DNA of 64,000 nt from a virus. The stretch is taken from IMG/VR virus record IMGVR_UViG_3300031521_000043, positions 1 to 64,000 of that record; one strand, 5' to 3'. The translations under genes were made by a program, and so were the position numbers. The notes below the pieces were generated by a model that saw only the letters and a program-made list of their open reading frames with translations, was not told the origin of the DNA and searched no databases. Of this stretch, positions 56,647 to 63,472 are shown in pieces; within the stretch, counting starts at the first letter, position 1; every line of letters starts with the position of its first letter.

Positions 56647-56670
56647 AAAGTCTTCCAAAAAAGGAAGACA

Positions 56671-56825
56671 CTAGATACAGAATTTAAGGTTATCTCCTAA
56701 GCCCTTTTTACAACTTACTTCTGTTGAGCGTTTTTAACGTAGCCACTGCTACGACCTGTCATCGACAGGATTTATCCCTTACGGGTTGTTTTTTAGTATA
56801 ATTTTTATTGCTGTGACCGTATCTA
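56671..56825 (-). ncRNA. ACAGCAA-stem ncRNA, long form
   Basis: UAGAUACGG-UC-ACAGCAA...CUGUAUCUAG enclosing several hairpins; motif repeated at 60578-60640. Confidence 0.6.
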
Positions 56826-56829
56826 AAAT

Positions 56830-56904
56830 TGGTGGAGCCACCGGGAATCGAACCCGAATCCTATCACTGCCAGCGATATGTCCTACCGTTGAACGATGAC
56901 CCCC
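56830..56904 (-). tRNA. tRNA-Ala(GGC)
   Basis: UAUCG-CUGGCAG-UGAUA; G3:U70; ACCA end. Confidence 0.92.
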
Positions 56905-56907
56905 ATT

Positions 56908-57173
56908 AATAACGTAGCCGTAGCCGCGGTTCTGTTTTTATCTTTACATTTATCTCAGACTTCTTTCGAAGTAAGTCCCTTACGGGATGCCTCAACCCGG
57001 ACTTTTACAACGGGAAACATTACCCTTTGTCCTGTTTGAGTTGCTCCTAATTTGTGGTGTTAACGGGCGTCTTGTTCTCCAGACTCTACCCTCCCAATCA
57101 TCTGTTTTGGAGCCGCGAACTTCCTCTAATAGTGTTTGTTAACAAGTATCAGCGTAAAGTCGCTTGCGTCATT
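56908..57173 (-). ncRNA. rnpB: RNase P RNA, compact, with reduced specificity domain
   Basis: CR-I GAGGAAGUUCGCGGCUCC, CR-IV AGAUAAAU and CR-V ACAGAACCGCGGCUA. P2 CUUUACG/UGUAAAG, P4 with bulged U, P5 CUCC/GGAG and P15 CUCAA/UUGAG all pair. Confidence 0.9.
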
Positions 57174-57194
57174 AAATCTCAAAGAACTGTAATA

Positions 57195-57222
57195 ACTATA
57201 CTTCAAAATTCTCAAATGTCAA
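57195..57222 (-). promoter_or_regulatory. Sigma70-type promoter for the RNase P RNA/tRNA transcript
   Basis: TTGACA-16 nt-TATAGT. Confidence 0.7.
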
Positions 57223-57228
57223 GCGTGA

Positions 57229-57615
57229 TTACTTTTCACCAAATCTTTGAACGGTTTTAATGCCTACAATACCTATCAAAATTTCTACTATTTCTTGTGG
57301 TAAAGATGGAATCGTATAAACTCCATGACATATACCAACAATATATGCTAGTAACCAAATAATAAATACTCCACATCCCCACAATAACATTAAAATACGA
57401 ATAGATGAAACTCCGCCTGTATTATCTTGAATCATACTTGAAAATACGTTTACTTTATTATCATTTCCATTTATTACTGTTGTAGAAGAAATATTAGTTC
57501 CAGAATTTACGACGGGCATTTGAACTGTTTGTGTTGGTTGAGTTACAACATTACCATCGGAATTTGGCTGAACAAATCCAGCTTGTGTCATCTCATCCTG
57601 TGAAATATTTATCAT
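57229..57615 (-). CDS. Two-TM membrane protein (holin-like)
   Basis: SSIR followed by two TM segments and a QRFGEK end; TATTTATA 3 nt before the ATG. Confidence 0.55.
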   Translation of the reverse strand: MINISQDEMTQAGFVQPNSDGNVVTQPTQTVQMPVVNSGTNISSTTVINGNDNKVNVFSSMIQDNTGGVSSIRILMLLWGCGVFIIWLLAYIVGICHGVYTIPSLPQEIVEILIGIVGIKTVQRFGEK

Positions 57616-57752: not shown

Positions 57753-57830
57753 TGGTATGCGTGACAGGACTCGAACCTGTGATAAATCTCGGTGTAAACG
57801 AGACGCCGTTGCCGCTGGAGCCACACGCAC
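57753..57830 (-). tRNA. tRNA-Val(UAC)
   Basis: UCUCG-UUUACAC-CGAGA; ACCA end. Confidence 0.9.
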
Positions 57831-57839
57831 ATTAAAAAC

Positions 57840-57917
57840 TGGTCGGAATGGTGGGATTCGAACCCACGACCCCCTGCGCCCAAGGCAGGTGCGCTAGCCA
57901 AGCTGCGCTACATTCCG
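57840..57917 (-). tRNA. tRNA-Pro(UGG)
   Basis: CCUGC-CUUGGGC-GCAGG; C1:G72; ACCA end. Confidence 0.95.
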
Positions 57918-57926
57918 AAATAAAAT

Positions 57927-58018
57927 TGGCGGAGTAGAAGGGATTTGAACCCTCATTGCTTTTTAGGGCAAACAAGTTTAGCAAACTTGCGCTACCAGCC
58001 GTATTAGCCTCTAACTCC
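57927..58018 (-). tRNA. tRNA-Ser(GCU)
   Basis: CAAGU-UUGCUAA-ACUUG; long variable arm; GCCA end. Confidence 0.9.
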
Positions 58019-58323: not shown

Positions 58324-58425
58324 TGAATAATTAGAAAAGGATTCGAACCTTCGGTCAATCCACTTAAGGATTCGACATGACGTTCAATCGCCAATACAAT
58401 AAACCACTCTGACACCTAATCATTC
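58324..58425 (-). ncRNA. Atypical class-II tRNA-like RNA or pseudo-tRNA
   Basis: Good D-loop and GUUCGAAU T-loop, but a 6-nt anticodon loop, an 11-bp acceptor-like stem and no CCA. Confidence 0.6.
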
Positions 58426-59134: not shown

Positions 59135-59674
59135 AAAATTTACTTTATAGATTTCTCTAATGGCATCTTTACCATTTTCTTGTAATTCTCTAGTTCCGAT
59201 GCCGGCAAAATTCTGTGTCAATTTTGGAACATAATCAATTACTTCAAATTCTTCTTTTTCATAATTGAATTTATTCCAATTATTATTTTCTTGGTCAAAA
59301 AAGAAGATTGGTTTTTTATTATCAATCCCCATTTGAACGGCCCAACCCGTTCCTCCTGATACAATTTTTCGATTAATAAATTTACCGACGGCAAATATTG
59401 CATCCGAATTTTTAACCTGAAACCAATTCCTACAAATTAAATTTTTTACATAGGGCCAACGAACATTTGGATTTCTACCAATACCTTTTGAGGCAATTTT
59501 AACGGCTTCAAAACCTTCATCTAATTCTGGACGTTCAAGAATTTTTCTATTCTTACCTTGTTGAGTATGACCGTAAAAAGAATAAGCGATGGTGGTTACT
59601 CCATAATTATTGGCTTCATTTTCCCAGAACATATCGGAGCCAGGGCATCCGCCGCTATGACAAGTGTAATTCAT
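59120..59674 (-). CDS. SLOG/DprA-like nucleotide-binding protein
   Basis: HSGGCPGSD, RNWFQV..SDAIFAV, GGTGWAV and AGIGTR motifs. Confidence 0.7.
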   Translation of the reverse strand: MNYTCHSGGCPGSDMFWENEANNYGVTTIAYSFYGHTQQGKNRKILERPELDEGFEAVKIASKGIGRNPNVRWPYVKNLICRNWFQVKNSDAIFAVGKFINRKIVSGGTGWAVQMGIDNKKPIFFFDQENNNWNKFNYEKEEFEVIDYVPKLTQNFAGIGTRELQENGKDAIREIYKVNFGMVA

Positions 59675-60051
59675 AAATTTTTTAAGTTTCCTATGGTTAA
59701 GTGCCATGGAATTGGAATTCTTCTTGGTAATCCAAGTTCTTCACGAACATCTTCGATTCGTTCACATTTCACAGGCAACCAGAAATATTCTCCATCATTT
59801 TCTACTTCCTGACAATACTGAAAATCAATTTGGCTGTCTTGGTATTTATTCCAAAATTGTTTATGGTATTCGTCTATTATTTCATATTTTCCTGCAATAA
59901 CAGAGATATGGGCACCATGCATAGGAGGATTCAAATTCATATGACGACAATGCATATTGAGTAAATGACTGTAATATTCACAGATATCACTCTCAACATA
60001 TATCATTAACCATGTTTTGTGGTAATGCAATTTTCCTTTGCAATGGAACAT
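59671..60051 (-). CDS. 2H phosphoesterase
   Basis: Two Hx[S/T] motifs, HISV and HLTI; start corrected to MFHCKG. Confidence 0.75.
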   Translation of the reverse strand: MFHCKGKLHYHKTWLMIYVESDICEYYSHLLNMHCRHMNLNPPMHGAHISVIAGKYEIIDEYHKQFWNKYQDSQIDFQYCQEVENDGEYFWLPVKCERIEDVREELGLPRRIPIPWHLTIGNLKNL

Positions 60052-60057
60052 AAAAAT

Positions 60058-60184
60058 TGGTGGGGAAGGTTCGACTTGAACGAACAAATAGATATGCGAC
60101 TTACTGGATATGCGTCTTTATCTACAATTTTAGCACACTATGTATCCAACCGTGCGCTGCGTTTACCTATTTCGCCACTTCCCC
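60058..60184 (-). ncRNA. CCA-ended tRNA-like RNA with an expanded anticodon/variable domain
   Basis: Acceptor GGGGAAG/CUUCCCC-ACCA, Leu-type D arm, T arm GUUCG-UUCAAGU-CGAAC and a 13-nt anticodon loop. Confidence 0.75.
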
Positions 60185-62941: not shown

Positions 62942-63472
62942 CTAAATTGTTCCCACATACATACCCATGATAATCGCGGCACACGAACCGACGTTTAATG
63001 AACGAACTGTACCACGAGCAGGAATAGTAACTATTCTTTCTGAATTGTCAAGCATGTATTCTGATAATCCGAGTTGTTCTTCGCCGACCATAAAGATTGG
63101 TGGTAACTTTAAATTACTAAAAGGATTATCATATATTGATACCGTCTTAGATTCAAACTTAGGAATATTATTTTCTACGGAAACTAAAGAATACTTTCCA
63201 TTTATAAATTCCATAAAAGATTCTTCGGTTCTAATATAGACAGTCGGAATATAATGATGTGTTCCGACTGTACTTCGACGGTCATACTGTTTTGAACCAC
63301 CGACATAACAAAATTCACTAAATCCAAAAAAGTTGGCAGAACGTATACAATTTCCTAAATTAAAATCACCTGTCACGTGCGCCATACCAAATGCTGCCTT
63401 ATGAGAATGGTCAGAATAACTTTCCTTGATTTCTTCAACCGACAGTGACTTTAAGTAATCGTGAACATTCAT
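62942..63472 (-). CDS. SpoU/TrmH-family RNA 2'-O-methyltransferase
   Basis: NLGNCIRSA, VGEEQLGLS and IPARGTVRSLNVG SPOUT motifs. Confidence 0.92.
   Translation of the reverse strand: MNVHDYLKSLSVEEIKESYSDHSHKAAFGMAHVTGDFNLGNCIRSANFFGFSEFCYVGGSKQYDRRSTVGTHHYIPTVYIRTEESFMEFINGKYSLVSVENNIPKFESKTVSIYDNPFSNLKLPPIFMVGEEQLGLSEYMLDNSERIVTIPARGTVRSLNVGSCAAIIMGMYVGTI

What the first reader, a model, noticed from the sequence alone, without database searches (positions are those of the whole stretch)
56908..57173. Phage-encoded minimal RNase P ribozyme
Seen: a 266-nt RNA with the catalytic-domain hallmarks. These are P1 (AAUGACG/CGUUAUU), P2, P3, P4 with bulged U (G-U-UCGCGG/CCGCGGC), P5, a P6-like pseudoknot (AAAC/GUUU), P15 with nearby GGU, P16 GGAC/GUCC and two GNRA hairpins. 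Only about 55 nt lie where the specificity domain belongs. It has its own promoter and ends 3 nt before tRNA-Ala. Known: bacterial RNase P RNAs are typically ~350-400 nt, and S-domain-reduced forms occur in Thermoproteaceae (type T). Inference: the phage matures its own tRNAs and atypical tRNA-like RNAs with an enzyme less dependent on elbow recognition. No rnpA is seen in this window.
Basis: partly seen in the sequence, partly recalled or inferred. Interest (0 to 1): 0.92.

Follow-up and report, generated by a model that had tools for sequence, protein, structure and literature searches.

The report
Phage-encoded miniature RNase P RNA
A giant uncultured peat phage carries, inside its own tRNA gene cluster, a 266-base cut-down copy of RNase P RNA (the ribozyme that trims new tRNAs) that keeps the whole catalytic half and has almost lost the half that reads the tRNA elbow.

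Summary
Window 56908-57173 (minus strand) is a real homologue of bacterial class A RNase P RNA. Rfam RF00010 aligns end to end (45 bits, E about 1e-13, below the curated cut-off of 100). About 140 specificity-domain model positions are replaced by 43 nt.

I found 13 distinct relatives in phage and metagenome contigs, all in co-oriented tRNA arrays. On their alignment 96% of cells pair and 49 of 70 pairs show compensatory changes, including the P4 and P6 pseudoknots. The bulged U, J5/15 GCAA, L15 GGU, J18/2 and ACAGAA are conserved. No rnpA was found in two complete phage genomes with the RNA.

A peat metatranscriptome contig matches perfectly and joins the RNA's 3' end to its 5' end (267-nt unit).

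Best reading (about 0.6): an active, catalytic-domain-only RNase P RNA that works with host RnpA on phage pre-tRNAs. Nineteen of 20 of these encode CCA.

It is the minimal end of a wider trait I saw: jumbo-phage contigs with fuller RNase P RNAs wedged between tRNAs. Seven literature searches found no report of this.

This scan has noted similar miniature phage RNase P RNAs on other DNA before. Activity is untested.

The parts
57195..57222 (-). Promoter-like site TTGACA-16-TATAGT upstream of the RNA
   Evidence: 11 of 12 consensus matches, the best of 5 sites in the 1.2-kb scan (shuffles give 4.2 +/- 2.0 sites, so the count alone is not significant). A similar TTGACA...TGTATAGTTAT element lies upstream in L008, L127, L148 and L195.
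57174..57194 (-). Predicted 5' leader between promoter and P1, presumably removed
   Evidence: Inference. The -10 hexamer ends at 57195. The head-to-tail joint in an RNA-library contig places the 5' end at 57174-57177.
56908..57173 (-). RNase P RNA homologue, 266 nt (class A catalytic domain plus a vestigial S-domain)
   Evidence: RF00010 model 1-367 aligned at 45.3 bits, E 8.8e-13. Own family model R1 scores 277.6 bits. Covariation.
57161..57173 (-). P1 5' strand (RNA 1-13)
   Evidence: Pairs with 56908-56920. 10 of 12 pairs show changes on both sides across 13 sequences. RNAalifold recovers it independently.
56908..56920 (-). P1 3' strand (RNA 254-266)
57126..57159 (-). P2 5' strand (RNA 15-20) and the P3 hairpin (RNA 22-48)
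   Evidence: P2: 4 of 6 pairs covary. P3: 9 of 10 pairs covary. P3 is short in L127/L195 and expanded by about 60-75 nt in L148/L202.
57113..57127 (-). CR-I: AGAGGAA plus the P4 5' strand (RNA 47-61), with the bulged U at 57118
   Evidence: GAGGAA and the bulged U are invariant in 13 of 13 (the two bases before GAGGAA vary: AG in 11, GG and UG in one each). The P4 5' strand aligns to the Rfam consensus without indels.
56922..56935 (-). CR-V: ACAGAA plus the P4 3' strand (RNA 239-252)
   Evidence: P4 has 8 bp, 100% paired in the 11 sequences that have both strands. 3 pairs covary (L354 CGAUA/UAUCG, L195 CGUGG/CUACG). P4 was not part of the model that made the alignment.
57104..57112 (-). P5 5' strand (RNA 62-65) and P6 5' strand (RNA 67-70, AAAC)
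   Evidence: P5: 2 of 4 pairs covary (CAUC/GAUG, CUGC/GCAG, CUAC/GUAG in L352-L354). P6: 4 bp, 100% paired, 2 pairs covary, and it was not in the model.
57048..57101 (-). Vestigial S-domain (RNA 73-126): P7, GGGAG, one variable hairpin (57065-57091), and the GUUAACACCAC strand
   Evidence: 140 model positions are replaced by 43 nt. The hairpin varies from about 10 to about 120 nt among relatives. The P7 register is ambiguous (my P7 versus RNAalifold's).
57041..57047 (-). P5 3' strand and J5/15 GCAA (RNA 127-133)
   Evidence: GCAA is invariant in 13 of 13. It corresponds to the consensus GGAGCAA of RF00010.
56991..57040 (-). P15-P16-P17 arm (RNA 134-183) with L15 GGGU at 56995-56998 and the P6 3' strand (GUUU) at 57015-57018
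   Evidence: P15: 4 of 4 pairs covary. P16: 2 of 4. P17: 2 of 3. GGU is kept in 13 of 13 (GGGU, AGGU or UGGU).
56976..56987 (-). Extra GNRA hairpin (GUAA loop) between P15 and P18
   Evidence: 4 of 4 pairs covary where present. Absent in 6 of 13 (gap cells): L127, L148, L195, L352, the 3'-cut L202 and the partly aligned L004.
56956..56975 (-). P18-like hairpin with a GAAA loop
   Evidence: Aligned to P18 of RF00010. Lost in the same lineages.
56942..56956 (-). J18/2 GAGAUAAAUG (CR-IV) and the P2 3' strand
   Evidence: Matches the consensus AGAugAAUG. Conserved in 11 of the 12 sequences that reach it. The exception, L123, is misaligned there, and by eye it has AGAGGAAUG.
56904..56907 (-). 4-nt spacer AAUG
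56830..56903 (-). tRNA-Ala(GGC) with encoded CCA, the first likely substrate and a possible 3'-end maker for the RNA

Best explanation
**Shown.** The element is a phage gene for a miniature bacterial-type (class A) RNase P RNA. It has its own sigma-70-like promoter-like site inside a co-oriented array of 22 tRNA genes. It keeps the complete catalytic domain:
- P1-P5, the P4 pseudoknot with its bulged U, and P6.
- The P15-P17 arm with the GGU that pairs with 3'-RCCA.
- J5/15, J18/2 and J2/4.

In place of P8-P14 there is one short variable hairpin.

**Inferred mechanism.** The RNA is cut out of a precursor. Its 3' side lies 4 nt from tRNA-Ala. It folds through P4 and P6 into the usual active site and binds the host's RnpA protein, since the phages have no rnpA. 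It then cleaves the 5' leaders of the phage's own pre-tRNAs.

Substrate recognition would rest on the acceptor stem, U(-1), the encoded CCA and the leader, rather than on the T-loop/D-loop elbow. This would add RNase P capacity during infection and could also accept acceptor-stem-plus-CCA RNAs that lack a normal elbow.

**Status of the steps.**
- Shown: homology, structure, conservation, phage location, presence in RNA libraries.
- Inferred: catalysis, the protein partner and the substrates.
For: **Homology.** RF00010 aligns full length, E 8.8e-13 and 2.2e-14. It also recognises relatives L006 (40.6 bits) and L352 (44.1 bits).

**Family.** 13 distinct sequences come from 22 loci. All those with flanks lie in tRNA arrays with conserved gene order.

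**Structure.**
- 96.3% of 776 cells are paired and 49 of 70 pairs change on both sides.
- 0 of 500 shuffles reach any measure.
- Slid controls give 33-46% paired and at most 17 such pairs.
- P4 and P6 were not in the aligning model, yet both are 100% paired with compensatory changes.
- RNAalifold on an unfitted MAFFT alignment recovers P1, P2, P3, P5, P15, P16 and P17.

**Catalytic and substrate-binding nucleotides.** GAGGAA, the bulged U, GCAA and GGU are kept in 13 of 13. ACAGAA or ACAAAA is kept in all 11 sequences that reach it.

**Substrates fit.** 19 of 20 tRNAs encode CCA and 14 of 20 have U at -1.

**Published biochemistry.**
- The E. coli C-domain needs a P6-like contact but not P18 (PMC5839562, abstract). 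This family keeps P6 and loses P18 in several lineages.

**Not a misassembly.** The stretch is held by 10 runs at half or more of its words. The RNA lies at a syntenic place in 6 of 20 related phage records, including a complete 365-kb genome.

**RNA libraries.** A 220-nt contig of a peat metatranscriptome matches with 0 differences. It bridges 56908 to 57174 head to tail.
Against: - No activity, partner or substrate was tested.
- The Rfam score (45.3) is far below the curated cut-off (100). No RNase P hit appears at gathering threshold.
- The elbow-binding module is missing. The review says this lowers pre-tRNA affinity.
- No rnpA was found in the record or in the relatives (0 of 1, 0 of 3). 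The host is unknown, so a protein partner is assumed.
- A complete 297-kb relative (G006) and a 78%-complete one (G007) lack the RNA, so it is dispensable for part of the clade.
- Single-sequence folding energy is not unusual (z = -1.18).
- The expression evidence is contigs only. The perfect match is one contig at depth 5.4 in one run. Contigs cannot show level or strand.
- The alignment was fitted to the nested helices, so those counts lean towards the structure.
Confidence: 0.62

Rival explanations
1. RnpA hijacker or sponge. The RNA keeps the protein-binding and folding core of RNase P RNA mainly to capture the host's RnpA protein. It either starves host tRNA maturation or redirects the holoenzyme, and its own catalysis is weak or irrelevant.
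For: The phages carry no rnpA, so any protein partner must be the host's. The S-domain, which gives tRNA affinity, is gone. The RNA has its own strong promoter-like site.
Against: Nucleotides that serve substrate binding and chemistry rather than protein binding are kept in 13 of 13 across lineages diverged enough for Rfam to miss them. These are the bulged U in P4, the J5/15 A's and the L15 GGU. The phage tRNAs keep the matching CCA and U(-1). A sponge would not need P6 covariation.
Confidence: 0.14
2. Specialised processing ribozyme. It is catalytic, but its real substrates are the non-tRNA or tRNA-like RNAs of the island and its own precursor, not ordinary tRNAs, which host RNase P handles.
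For: In L127 and L195 the RNA is followed after 5-6 nt by an 87-89-nt RNA that ARAGORN does not call as a tRNA. That RNA has a 9-bp terminal stem and an A-CCA end. The window's island holds other unexplained RNAs, according to notes e1-6212312 and e1-6212320, which I did not check. Loss of the elbow reader would favour such substrates.
Against: In the window, L008, L352 and L353 the next gene is an ordinary tRNA. 19 of 20 ordinary tRNAs have the CCA and most have the leader features a type A enzyme uses. No data separate the two substrate sets.
Confidence: 0.15
3. Decaying relic. A host rnpB captured by an ancestral phage is being deleted piece by piece and no longer has a function.
For: Sizes form a series from 381 to 211 nt among phage-borne forms. 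Some relatives lack it.
Against: Compensatory changes in 49 of 70 pairs and invariant core nucleotides show purifying selection. A similar promoter-like element lies upstream in relatives. The RNA is present in RNA libraries. It occurs in two phage groups with unrelated terminases.
Confidence: 0.04
4. Host contamination or misassembly. The stretch is bacterial rnpB DNA wrongly joined to a phage contig.
For: The record is a metagenomic fragment, 21% complete by CheckV.
Against: The same RNA sits at the same place between the same tRNAs in independent contigs and runs. Its P4 core was found in 0 of the 58 genome-contig hits of the short-S pattern. No cellular rnpB has this form.
Confidence: 0.01

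Closest known systems
Bacterial class A (ancestral type) RNase P RNA, Rfam RF00010 (E. coli M1 RNA / rnpB, Thermotoga maritima P RNA)
   Same: P1-P5, the P4 pseudoknot with bulged U, P6, P15-P17 with the GGU that binds RCCA, a P18-like GNRA hairpin, and the consensus J3/4, J5/15, J18/2 and J2/4 sequences. The model aligns from position 1 to 367.
   Different: - 266 nt against the typical 340-420 nt (PMC4919922, passage).
- P8-P14, including the tRNA elbow-binding module, are replaced by one hairpin.
- Four P4 pairs are changed in a compensated way.
- There is an extra GNRA hairpin.
- The score is 45 bits, below the 100-bit cut-off.
- It is encoded by a phage inside a tRNA array, and no rnpA was found in the complete genomes of two relatives.
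Thermoproteaceae (Pyrobaculum) minimal RNase P RNA, 'type T' or 'type P' (Lai et al. 2010, not held here; described in PMC4919922 and PMC12974513)
   Same: [quoted passage not shown]
   Different: Archaeal lineage, cellular and the organism's only RNase P RNA, working with several archaeal proteins. The phage RNA is bacterial class A by its best clan match and has P6, P15-P17 and GGU. The reduction is convergent, not shared ancestry.
Engineered C-domain-only E. coli RNase P RNA (Eco CP RPR; Mao et al. 2018, PMC5839562)
   Same: A type A catalytic domain without the S-domain. It is active with and without C5 protein, depends on a P6-like contact, and does not need P18 (abstract). The phage family keeps P6 and can lose P18.
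   Different: A laboratory construct with reduced efficiency. The phage RNA is a natural, selected version that keeps P7, a hairpin and a conserved GUUAAYACCAC strand.
Diverged RNase P RNAs of CPR bacteria missing P12, P13, P14 and P18 (Lui et al. 2021, PMC8172020)
   Same: Bacterial-type RNAs with a strongly reduced S-domain, scoring below Rfam thresholds (passages).
   Different: They are cellular and the genome's only copy. 23 of 35 lack the UGG/CCA-binding motif, whereas the phage family keeps GGU in 13 of 13. I could not see their figures to compare how much of P7-P11 remains.
Fuller class A RNase P RNAs on large IMG/VR viral contigs
   Same: They lie between co-oriented tRNA genes, 0-10 nt away, on contigs of 100-463 kb, and they are class A.
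   Different: They have the canonical P4, 300-381 nt, 108-328 bits (above the cut-off), S-segments of 112-172 nt and high GC. The window's family has a changed P4, an S-segment of 40-61 nt and 39-55% GC. I verified their viral nature only in part (terminase hit in 2 of 5).
Theta (HDV-like) ribozymes next to tRNAs of gut phages (PMC10879173)
   Same: Phage-encoded ribozymes placed beside phage tRNA genes and linked to tRNA maturation (title and start of abstract only).
   Different: Small self-cleaving ribozymes acting in cis. They are unrelated in fold and chemistry to the trans-acting RNase P.

Membership tests
Bacterial class A RNase P RNA (RF00010) | P4 pseudoknot formed by CR-I and CR-V, with a bulged U and flanking GAGGAA / ACAGAA | tested here: met
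   Aligned without indels to the consensus. 8 bp, 100% paired, 3 pairs covary. GAGGAA and the bulged U are invariant in 13 of 13.
Bacterial class A RNase P RNA (RF00010) | Type A arm P15-P16-P17 with the P6 pseudoknot and the GGU motif in the P15/16 internal loop | tested here: met
   P15, P16, P17 and P6 are all supported by covariation. GGU is kept in 13 of 13.
Bacterial class A RNase P RNA (RF00010) | CR-IV in J18/2 and the nested helices P1, P2, P3 and P5 | tested here: met
Bacterial class A RNase P RNA (RF00010) | Specificity domain P7-P14 with the elbow (T-loop/D-loop) binding module (CR-II/CR-III) | tested here: not met
   140 model positions are replaced by 43 nt. Only P7, one hairpin and a GUUAACACCAC strand remain.
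Bacterial class A RNase P RNA (RF00010) | Score at or above Rfam's gathering cut-off (100 bits) | tested here: not met
   45.3 bits. Absent from the gathering-threshold scan.
Bacterial class A RNase P RNA (RF00010) | Catalyses 5'-leader removal from pre-tRNA and binds RnpA | not testable with these tools
   Needs a cleavage assay or complementation.
Thermoproteaceae minimal RNase P RNA (type T/P) | Catalytic domain only, with the S-domain nearly absent | tested here: met
   This is a functional likeness only.
Thermoproteaceae minimal RNase P RNA (type T/P) | Archaeal-type sequence, giving the best match within the RNase P clan | tested here: not met
   Among overlapping clan CL00002 matches the best kept is bacterial class A. 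Three lower-scoring clan matches were dropped by the tool.
Bacterial class B RNase P RNA (RF00011) | P5.1, P10.1, P15.1 and no P6/P16/P17 | tested here: not met
   P6, P16 and P17 are present with covariation. The best clan match is class A.

The most novel reading that the evidence does not exclude
The phage makes a covalently closed, circular, catalytic-domain-only RNase P ribozyme.

- After the ends are trimmed back to P1, a phage RNA ligase joins them. PF09414 genes are present in 3 of 4 records, one of them 3 kb from the RNA in G005.
- The product would be an exonuclease-resistant 267-nt circle. It would keep processing phage tRNAs and elbow-less tRNA-like RNAs while host RNA is being destroyed, perhaps without any protein.
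- It would be the first viral RNase P and the smallest natural bacterial-type one.
- It would be one end of a reduction series (381 to 211 nt) playing out in jumbo phages.
Probability: 0.2. Interest if true: 0.93.

Novelty: new variant of a known kind. Interest (0 to 1): 0.82.

Why it matters
RNase P is regarded as a universal cellular enzyme. A virus carrying its own RNase P RNA extends the list of translation-apparatus parts that giant phages bring along to the one ribozyme that matures tRNAs.

This family is also a natural experiment on a long-standing question: what is the minimal RNase P, and what is the specificity domain for in vivo? Until now that question rested on laboratory deletions, Mycoplasma, CPR bacteria and Pyrobaculum.

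Here selection has kept P4, P6, J5/15 and the CCA-binding GGU. It has discarded P8-P14 and, in some lineages, P18. This matches the biochemistry of the engineered E. coli C-domain.

The RNAs are small (211-285 nt without inserts), diverse and come with their own substrates next door. They are therefore directly testable and could serve as compact RNase P scaffolds.

The head-to-tail joint raises the further possibility of a circular ribozyme.

For annotation, such genes fall below Rfam's cut-off and are being missed.

Tried and rejected
**DNA similarity to GenBank phages.**
- The window's region gave nothing, in both near and distant modes.
- Canonical phage-borne RNase P queries gave 9 records and 1 record. 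None is a convincing phage case.
- The one cultured-phage hit (Microcystis phage MaAM05) lies among fabI, engB and mtgA and looks bacterial.

**Rfam scans.**
- At E <= 0.001 over six loci together (44 kb), Rfam missed the RNA. Narrow scans were needed.
- L004/L007, L353 and L354 are not seen by Rfam at all.

**Motif scans.**
- The motif GGAGCAANTCAAACAGG gave at least 116 stretches. Nearly all lacked the other hallmarks.
- L003, L005, L122, L193, L137 and L250 are chance matches in coding DNA. L138 is an ordinary rnpB.

**Other negatives.**
- The upstream 128-aa ORF is not an RnpA-like partner. It is acidic (pI 4.75) with a hydrophobic C-terminal part, and has no Pfam hit.
- RtcB was found in 0 of 4 records.
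- PMC6582537 concerns ordinary mycobacterial rnpB.
- Bcheck (PMC2996960) does not mention phages.

**RNA-library cover.** In the four runs, depth was seen only at 56648-56775, 56840-57223 and 57800-57991. There was none over the ORF at 57229-57615. Holes in contig cover prove nothing, so I draw no conclusion from them.

**Small-share runs.** X20, X22 and X23 also held only small shares, so no habitat is named from them.

**Inserts.** I considered whether the inserts of L006 and L352 are true S-domain remnants. Rfam skipped them, so this stays open.

**Supplements.** The supplements of PMC12974513 and PMC8172020 could not be read. They may list bacterial S-domain deletions that bear on novelty.
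Full report
**What is there.**

On the minus strand of the window, 56908-57173, lies a 266-nt sequence. Its ends pair as a 12-bp helix, and its interior carries the strings that define RNase P RNA.

Rfam at its curated thresholds reports only tRNAs in the window: 20 matches, all tRNA. A permissive scan of 56700-57400 gives bacterial class A RNase P RNA (RF00010) at 56905-57172 on the minus strand. The score is 45.3 bits against a cut-off of 100, with E 8.8e-13, and the model is aligned from position 1 to 367. On the whole 73,489-nt virus record the E-value is 2.2e-14 and this is the only match.

In that alignment the two P4 strands and the J5/15, J18/2 and J2/4 consensus sequences line up without indels. 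Three blocks of the specificity domain (15 + 15 + 110 model positions) are replaced by 14 + 7 + 22 nt.

The single-sequence folding energy is unremarkable: z = -1.18, and 25 of 200 shuffles fold as well. That is usual for a pseudoknotted RNA and counts neither for nor against.

**The genome.**

The window is part of an IMG/VR virus record that CheckV estimates at 21% complete. It has 33% G+C.

PHROGs name a portal, a large terminase, a baseplate wedge protein and an SbcC-like nuclease. Five of the 10 large proteins scanned have any hit.

ARAGORN finds 22 tRNA genes, all on the minus strand, between 55397 and 63950. The RNA lies among them.

The terminase has 538 related stretches in IMG/VR. 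The nearest cultured phages are only 48-50% identical: Microcystis phage Mel-JY01 and Flavobacterium phage immuto. The host is unknown.

The DNA stretch is held at half or more of its sampled words by 10 runs. All are labelled peat metagenome from 2019-2020. One may be the source, and they may belong to one campaign.

**Relatives.**

The exact P4 5' 18-mer occurs in six viral contigs. Four carry a related RNA and two are chance matches in GC-rich coding DNA.

I then used a pattern that demands CR-I and J5/15 only 35-65 nt apart, which ordinary rnpB genes do not have. It hit 4 viral, 87 metagenome and 58 genome contigs stretches.

My filter asked for a downstream strand complementary to each hit's own P4. 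It kept 29 of 147 pattern hits. Eleven of these had the window's P4 core, and L195 was added after inspection. None of the hits with that core came from genome contigs.

From five well-aligned members I built a covariance model: A2 and R1, 251 positions and 58 pairs. It recovers every member, including L123 (67 bits) and L004/L007/L187 (53 bits), which Rfam does not see even at E <= 1. It finds one copy only in the window and none in the rest of the record.

I searched 20 of the 80 terminase-related loci returned, choosing the contigs of 50 kb or more plus the two closest relatives. The model found the RNA in 6 of the 20 records.
- Positives include a complete 365-kb genome (G004, 282 nt) and a 74%-complete 251-kb one (G005, 285 nt).
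- Of the 14 negatives, 12 are fragments of 9-36% completeness.
- Two negatives are substantial: G006 (297 kb, complete) and G007 (185 kb, 78% complete).

The L004/L007 lineage sits in a complete 169-kb genome with terminal repeats and no detectable homologue of the window's terminase. The RNA therefore occurs in at least two phage groups.

All members with enough flank lie in co-oriented tRNA arrays. In the window's group the order is conserved: Leu-Val-Pro upstream, then Ala-Ala-Gln-Ser-Ser downstream.

**Structure.**

I analysed 13 distinct sequences. Duplicates L134, L199, L007, L187, L350, L351 and L355 and the 5'-cut L010 were left out. The 3'-cut L202 and the partly aligned L004 were kept with gaps.

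On this alignment the RNase P secondary structure gives the following:
- 96.3% of 776 cells form standard pairs.
- 49 of 70 pairs change on both sides.
- 0 of 500 shuffles reach any of the five measures.
- Sliding the 3' partners by 1-3 columns drops pairing to 33-46% and such pairs to at most 17.

The alignment was fitted to the nested helices, so those figures lean towards the structure. P4 and P6 were not in the model, yet both are 100% paired with compensatory changes:
- P4 reads CGCGG/CCGCG in the window, CGAUA/UAUCG in L354 and CGUGG/CUACG in L195, always with the bulged U.
- P6 reads AAAC/GUUU, AAGC/GCUU, CAGC/GCUG and UAAC/GUUA.

RNAalifold on the unfitted five-sequence MAFFT alignment independently predicts P1, P2, P3, P5, the S-hairpin, P15, P16, P17 and the first GNRA hairpin. 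It gives 59 pairs, 14 with double changes. It draws P7 in another register, so P7 is uncertain.

Single-stranded core elements are invariant or nearly so:
- GAGGAA, the bulged U and GCAA are kept in 13 of 13.
- GGU is kept in 13 of 13 (as GGGU, AGGU or UGGU).
- ACAGAA or ACAAAA, and the A after P4, are kept in all 11 sequences that reach them.

**What varies.**
- The hairpin that replaces P8-P14 runs from about 10 nt (L354, L123) to 27 nt (window). It carries inserts of about 50-120 nt in L353, L352 and L006. Rfam does not align the L006 and L352 inserts to the S-domain.
- P3 is a minimal hairpin in L127 and L195 and is expanded by about 60-75 nt in L148 and L202.
- L127, L148, L195 and L352 lack both 3' hairpins, the extra GNRA hairpin and P18. 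By eye L004 and L123 lack them too. This gives RNAs of 211-213 nt in L127 and L195.
- By eye, L004 and L123 carry a hairpin inserted in J2/4. The model misaligns that part.

**Substrate side and partners.**

Of the 20 tRNAs called by Rfam, 19 encode 3'-CCA and 14 have U at -1. Five share the leader UUUAAU.

U(-1) is the residue proposed to meet A248. GGU pairs with RCCA. Both points come from passages of PMC6582537 and PMC11143913.

No rnpA (PF00825) was found in the record (0 of 1). None was found in G004, G005 or G003 either (0 of 3, two of them complete). The control rang in 10 of 14 known genomes.

The ORF just upstream (57229-57615) is acidic with a hydrophobic C-terminal part and has no Pfam hit. 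It is syntenic in L202, L353 and L354 but is not RnpA-like.

**RNA libraries.**

Four metatranscriptome runs hold part of the stretch, and all are kept as contigs. In the peat run X19 one 220-nt contig (depth 5.4) matches with no differences. Its pieces lie at 56908-57061 and 57109-57174. The tool reports a joint from 57174 to 56908, 'goes back 267', with a shorter side of 66 nt and 3 ambiguous letters.

So the contig runs off the predicted 3' end of the RNA straight into its predicted 5' end. The phage DNA as assembled cannot give this.

My inference is that the RNA exists with termini at, or within 3 nt of, the ends of P1. Some molecules or cDNAs are joined head to tail. The cause would be circularisation in the cell or end-to-end template switching during reverse transcription.

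This rests on one contig in one run. Contigs cannot show level or strand, and I could not inspect raw reads or DNA runs.

Other contigs in X19, X20 and X22 match the flanks but carry 60, 113 or 121 other letters at the S-hairpin position. These are relatives with other inserts.

RNA-ligase-family genes (PF09414) are present in 3 of 4 records tested, including one about 3 kb from the RNA in G005. RtcB is present in 0 of 4.

A 2025 preprint reports native circular RNase P RNA isoforms in bacteria, fungi and human cells (10.1101/2025.06.30.662392). I saw only the search listing and the start of its abstract.

**How it most likely works.**

Published work supplies the missing biochemistry:
- C-domains of type A and B RNAs without the S-domain cleave pre-tRNAs with and without protein, with weaker binding (PMC11143913, passages).
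- The E. coli C-domain needs a 'P6-mimic' and gains nothing from P18 (PMC5839562, abstract).

The phage family shows the same pattern under natural selection: P6 is kept and covaries, P18 is dispensable, and the elbow reader is gone.

I therefore read the RNA as an active catalytic-domain-only RNase P RNA. It would borrow host RnpA and recognise phage precursors by acceptor stem, U(-1), CCA and leader.

The neighbouring tRNA-Ala lies 4 nt downstream. RNase P cleavage there would also free the RNA's own 3' side.

Catalysis, partner and substrates are inferred. I put this reading at about 0.6. The rivals are an RnpA sponge (0.14), a processing enzyme specialised for non-tRNA RNAs of the island (0.15), a relic (0.04) and an artefact (0.01).

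**Context found on the way.**

The canonical bacterial P4 18-mer occurs in 20 viral contigs, and 16 of them carry RF00010 matches above the cut-off (108-328 bits). The four without a match have the 18-mer within about 200 nt of the locus end.

In at least eight of them the RNase P RNA abuts co-oriented tRNAs on contigs of 31-463 kb: L358, L359, L361, L363, L365, L367, L373 and L374. In six of these the gap is 0-10 nt.

Their S-segments are 151-172 nt in most and 112-134 nt in four. The window's family has 40-61 nt.

A terminase-family hit was found in 2 of 5 of the large records tested, so their viral nature is only partly checked.

Separately, otherwise canonical class A RNAs of 279-281 nt (161-173 bits) have about 95 S-domain model positions deleted. 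Each is the only RF00010 hit in a bacterial MAG. L172 and L182 are similar, and none has tRNA neighbours.

**Novelty.**

Seven full-text searches found no description of a phage-encoded RNase P RNA. Passages of two reviews and two surveys also mention none.

For loss of the S-domain the record I saw is as follows:
- The 2026 survey names it only in Thermoproteaceae. For bacteria it lists losses of P6, AES8 and P19 (PMC12974513, section 12 and passages).
- Lui et al. 2021 describe CPR bacteria missing P12-P14 and P18 (PMC8172020, passages).

Lai et al. 2010 is not held and is cited through those papers. Supplements were closed. Subscription journals are not covered, so 'not in print' holds only for this library.

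Earlier notes of this scan describe similar miniature phage RNase P RNAs on at least five other genomes, including a circularly permuted type B form. I did not test those. They agree with what I found but are not independent evidence.

**Verdict.**

This is a real feature and a new variant of a known kind: a virus-encoded, catalytic-domain-only, bacterial-type RNase P RNA. It has strong comparative support for its structure, thin but pointed evidence for its existence as an RNA with P1-flush ends, and no functional test yet.

Noticed in passing
L359:4030-4350, L363:800-1149, L365:4462-4786, L367:8153-8517, L373:536-887, L374:65-392, L358:122-421, L361:875-1112: Class A RNase P RNAs above Rfam's cut-off (108-300 bits, 300-365 nt where complete) lie beside co-oriented tRNA genes (0-10 nt away in six of the eight) on IMG/VR contigs of 31-463 kb. 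Phage-borne RNase P RNA seems to be a wider jumbo-phage trait, with S-segments graded from 172 nt down to 112 nt.
   Followed up: partly
L268:1360-1640 and L269:1501-1779 (same loci as L248 and L233); also L172 and L182: GC-rich, otherwise canonical class A RNase P RNAs of about 280 nt (161-173 bits) have P11-P14 (about 95 model positions) deleted. Each is the only RF00010 hit in a 2.6-3.1 Mb bacterial MAG, and none has tRNAs nearby. It is unclear whether they are the cell's own rnpB or belong to a mobile element.
   Followed up: partly
L127, starting 6 nt after 11933; L195, starting 5 nt after the RNA's 3' end: An 87-89-nt RNA-like element directly follows the smallest RNase P-like RNAs. It has a 9-bp terminal stem and a 3' A-CCA tail, and ARAGORN does not call it as a tRNA. 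It could be an elbow-less RNase P substrate.
   Followed up: partly
L006:1484-1838 (about 105-120 nt inside the S-hairpin); L148:745-1024 and L202:864-1097 (P3 expanded by about 60-75 nt): Near-identical RNAs differ by large structured insertions at the tips of the S-hairpin or P3. RNA-library contigs show further variants with 60-121 other letters at the S-hairpin position.
   Followed up: partly
window 56648-56775: This stretch between tRNA-Ala(CGC) and tRNA-Ala(GGC) is covered by contigs of two wetland metatranscriptome runs at 90-95% likeness. Other first-stage notes describe a repeated stem element here.
   Followed up: no
window 58327-58422: ARAGORN calls a 'tRNA-???' with a two-base anticodon (tg), and Rfam's tRNA model does not report it. 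It is possibly one of the non-canonical tRNA-like RNAs of the island.
   Followed up: no
window 62942-63472 and 59671-60087: The tRNA island also encodes a SpoU-family RNA methyltransferase (73 bits) and a weak 2H-phosphoesterase match (24.3 bits, below the 27-bit cut-off).
   Followed up: no
L123:149-222: ARAGORN calls a tRNA with anticodon CTA (labelled Pyl), an amber-suppressor-like tRNA, in the phage contig that carries the divergent L123 form of the RNA.
   Followed up: no
L376 (MW495066.1 112823-117973): The GenBank record named Microcystis phage MaAM05 has an unannotated RNase P-like match flanked by fabI, engB and mtgA. That region looks bacterial rather than phage.
   Followed up: partly
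window, leaders of tRNAs at 57830, 60809, 61368, 62074, 62158: Five of 20 tRNAs share the identical 6-nt leader UUUAAU, and two more have UUAAUG. This may be a leader optimised for RNase P, or it may be a duplication trace.
   Followed up: no
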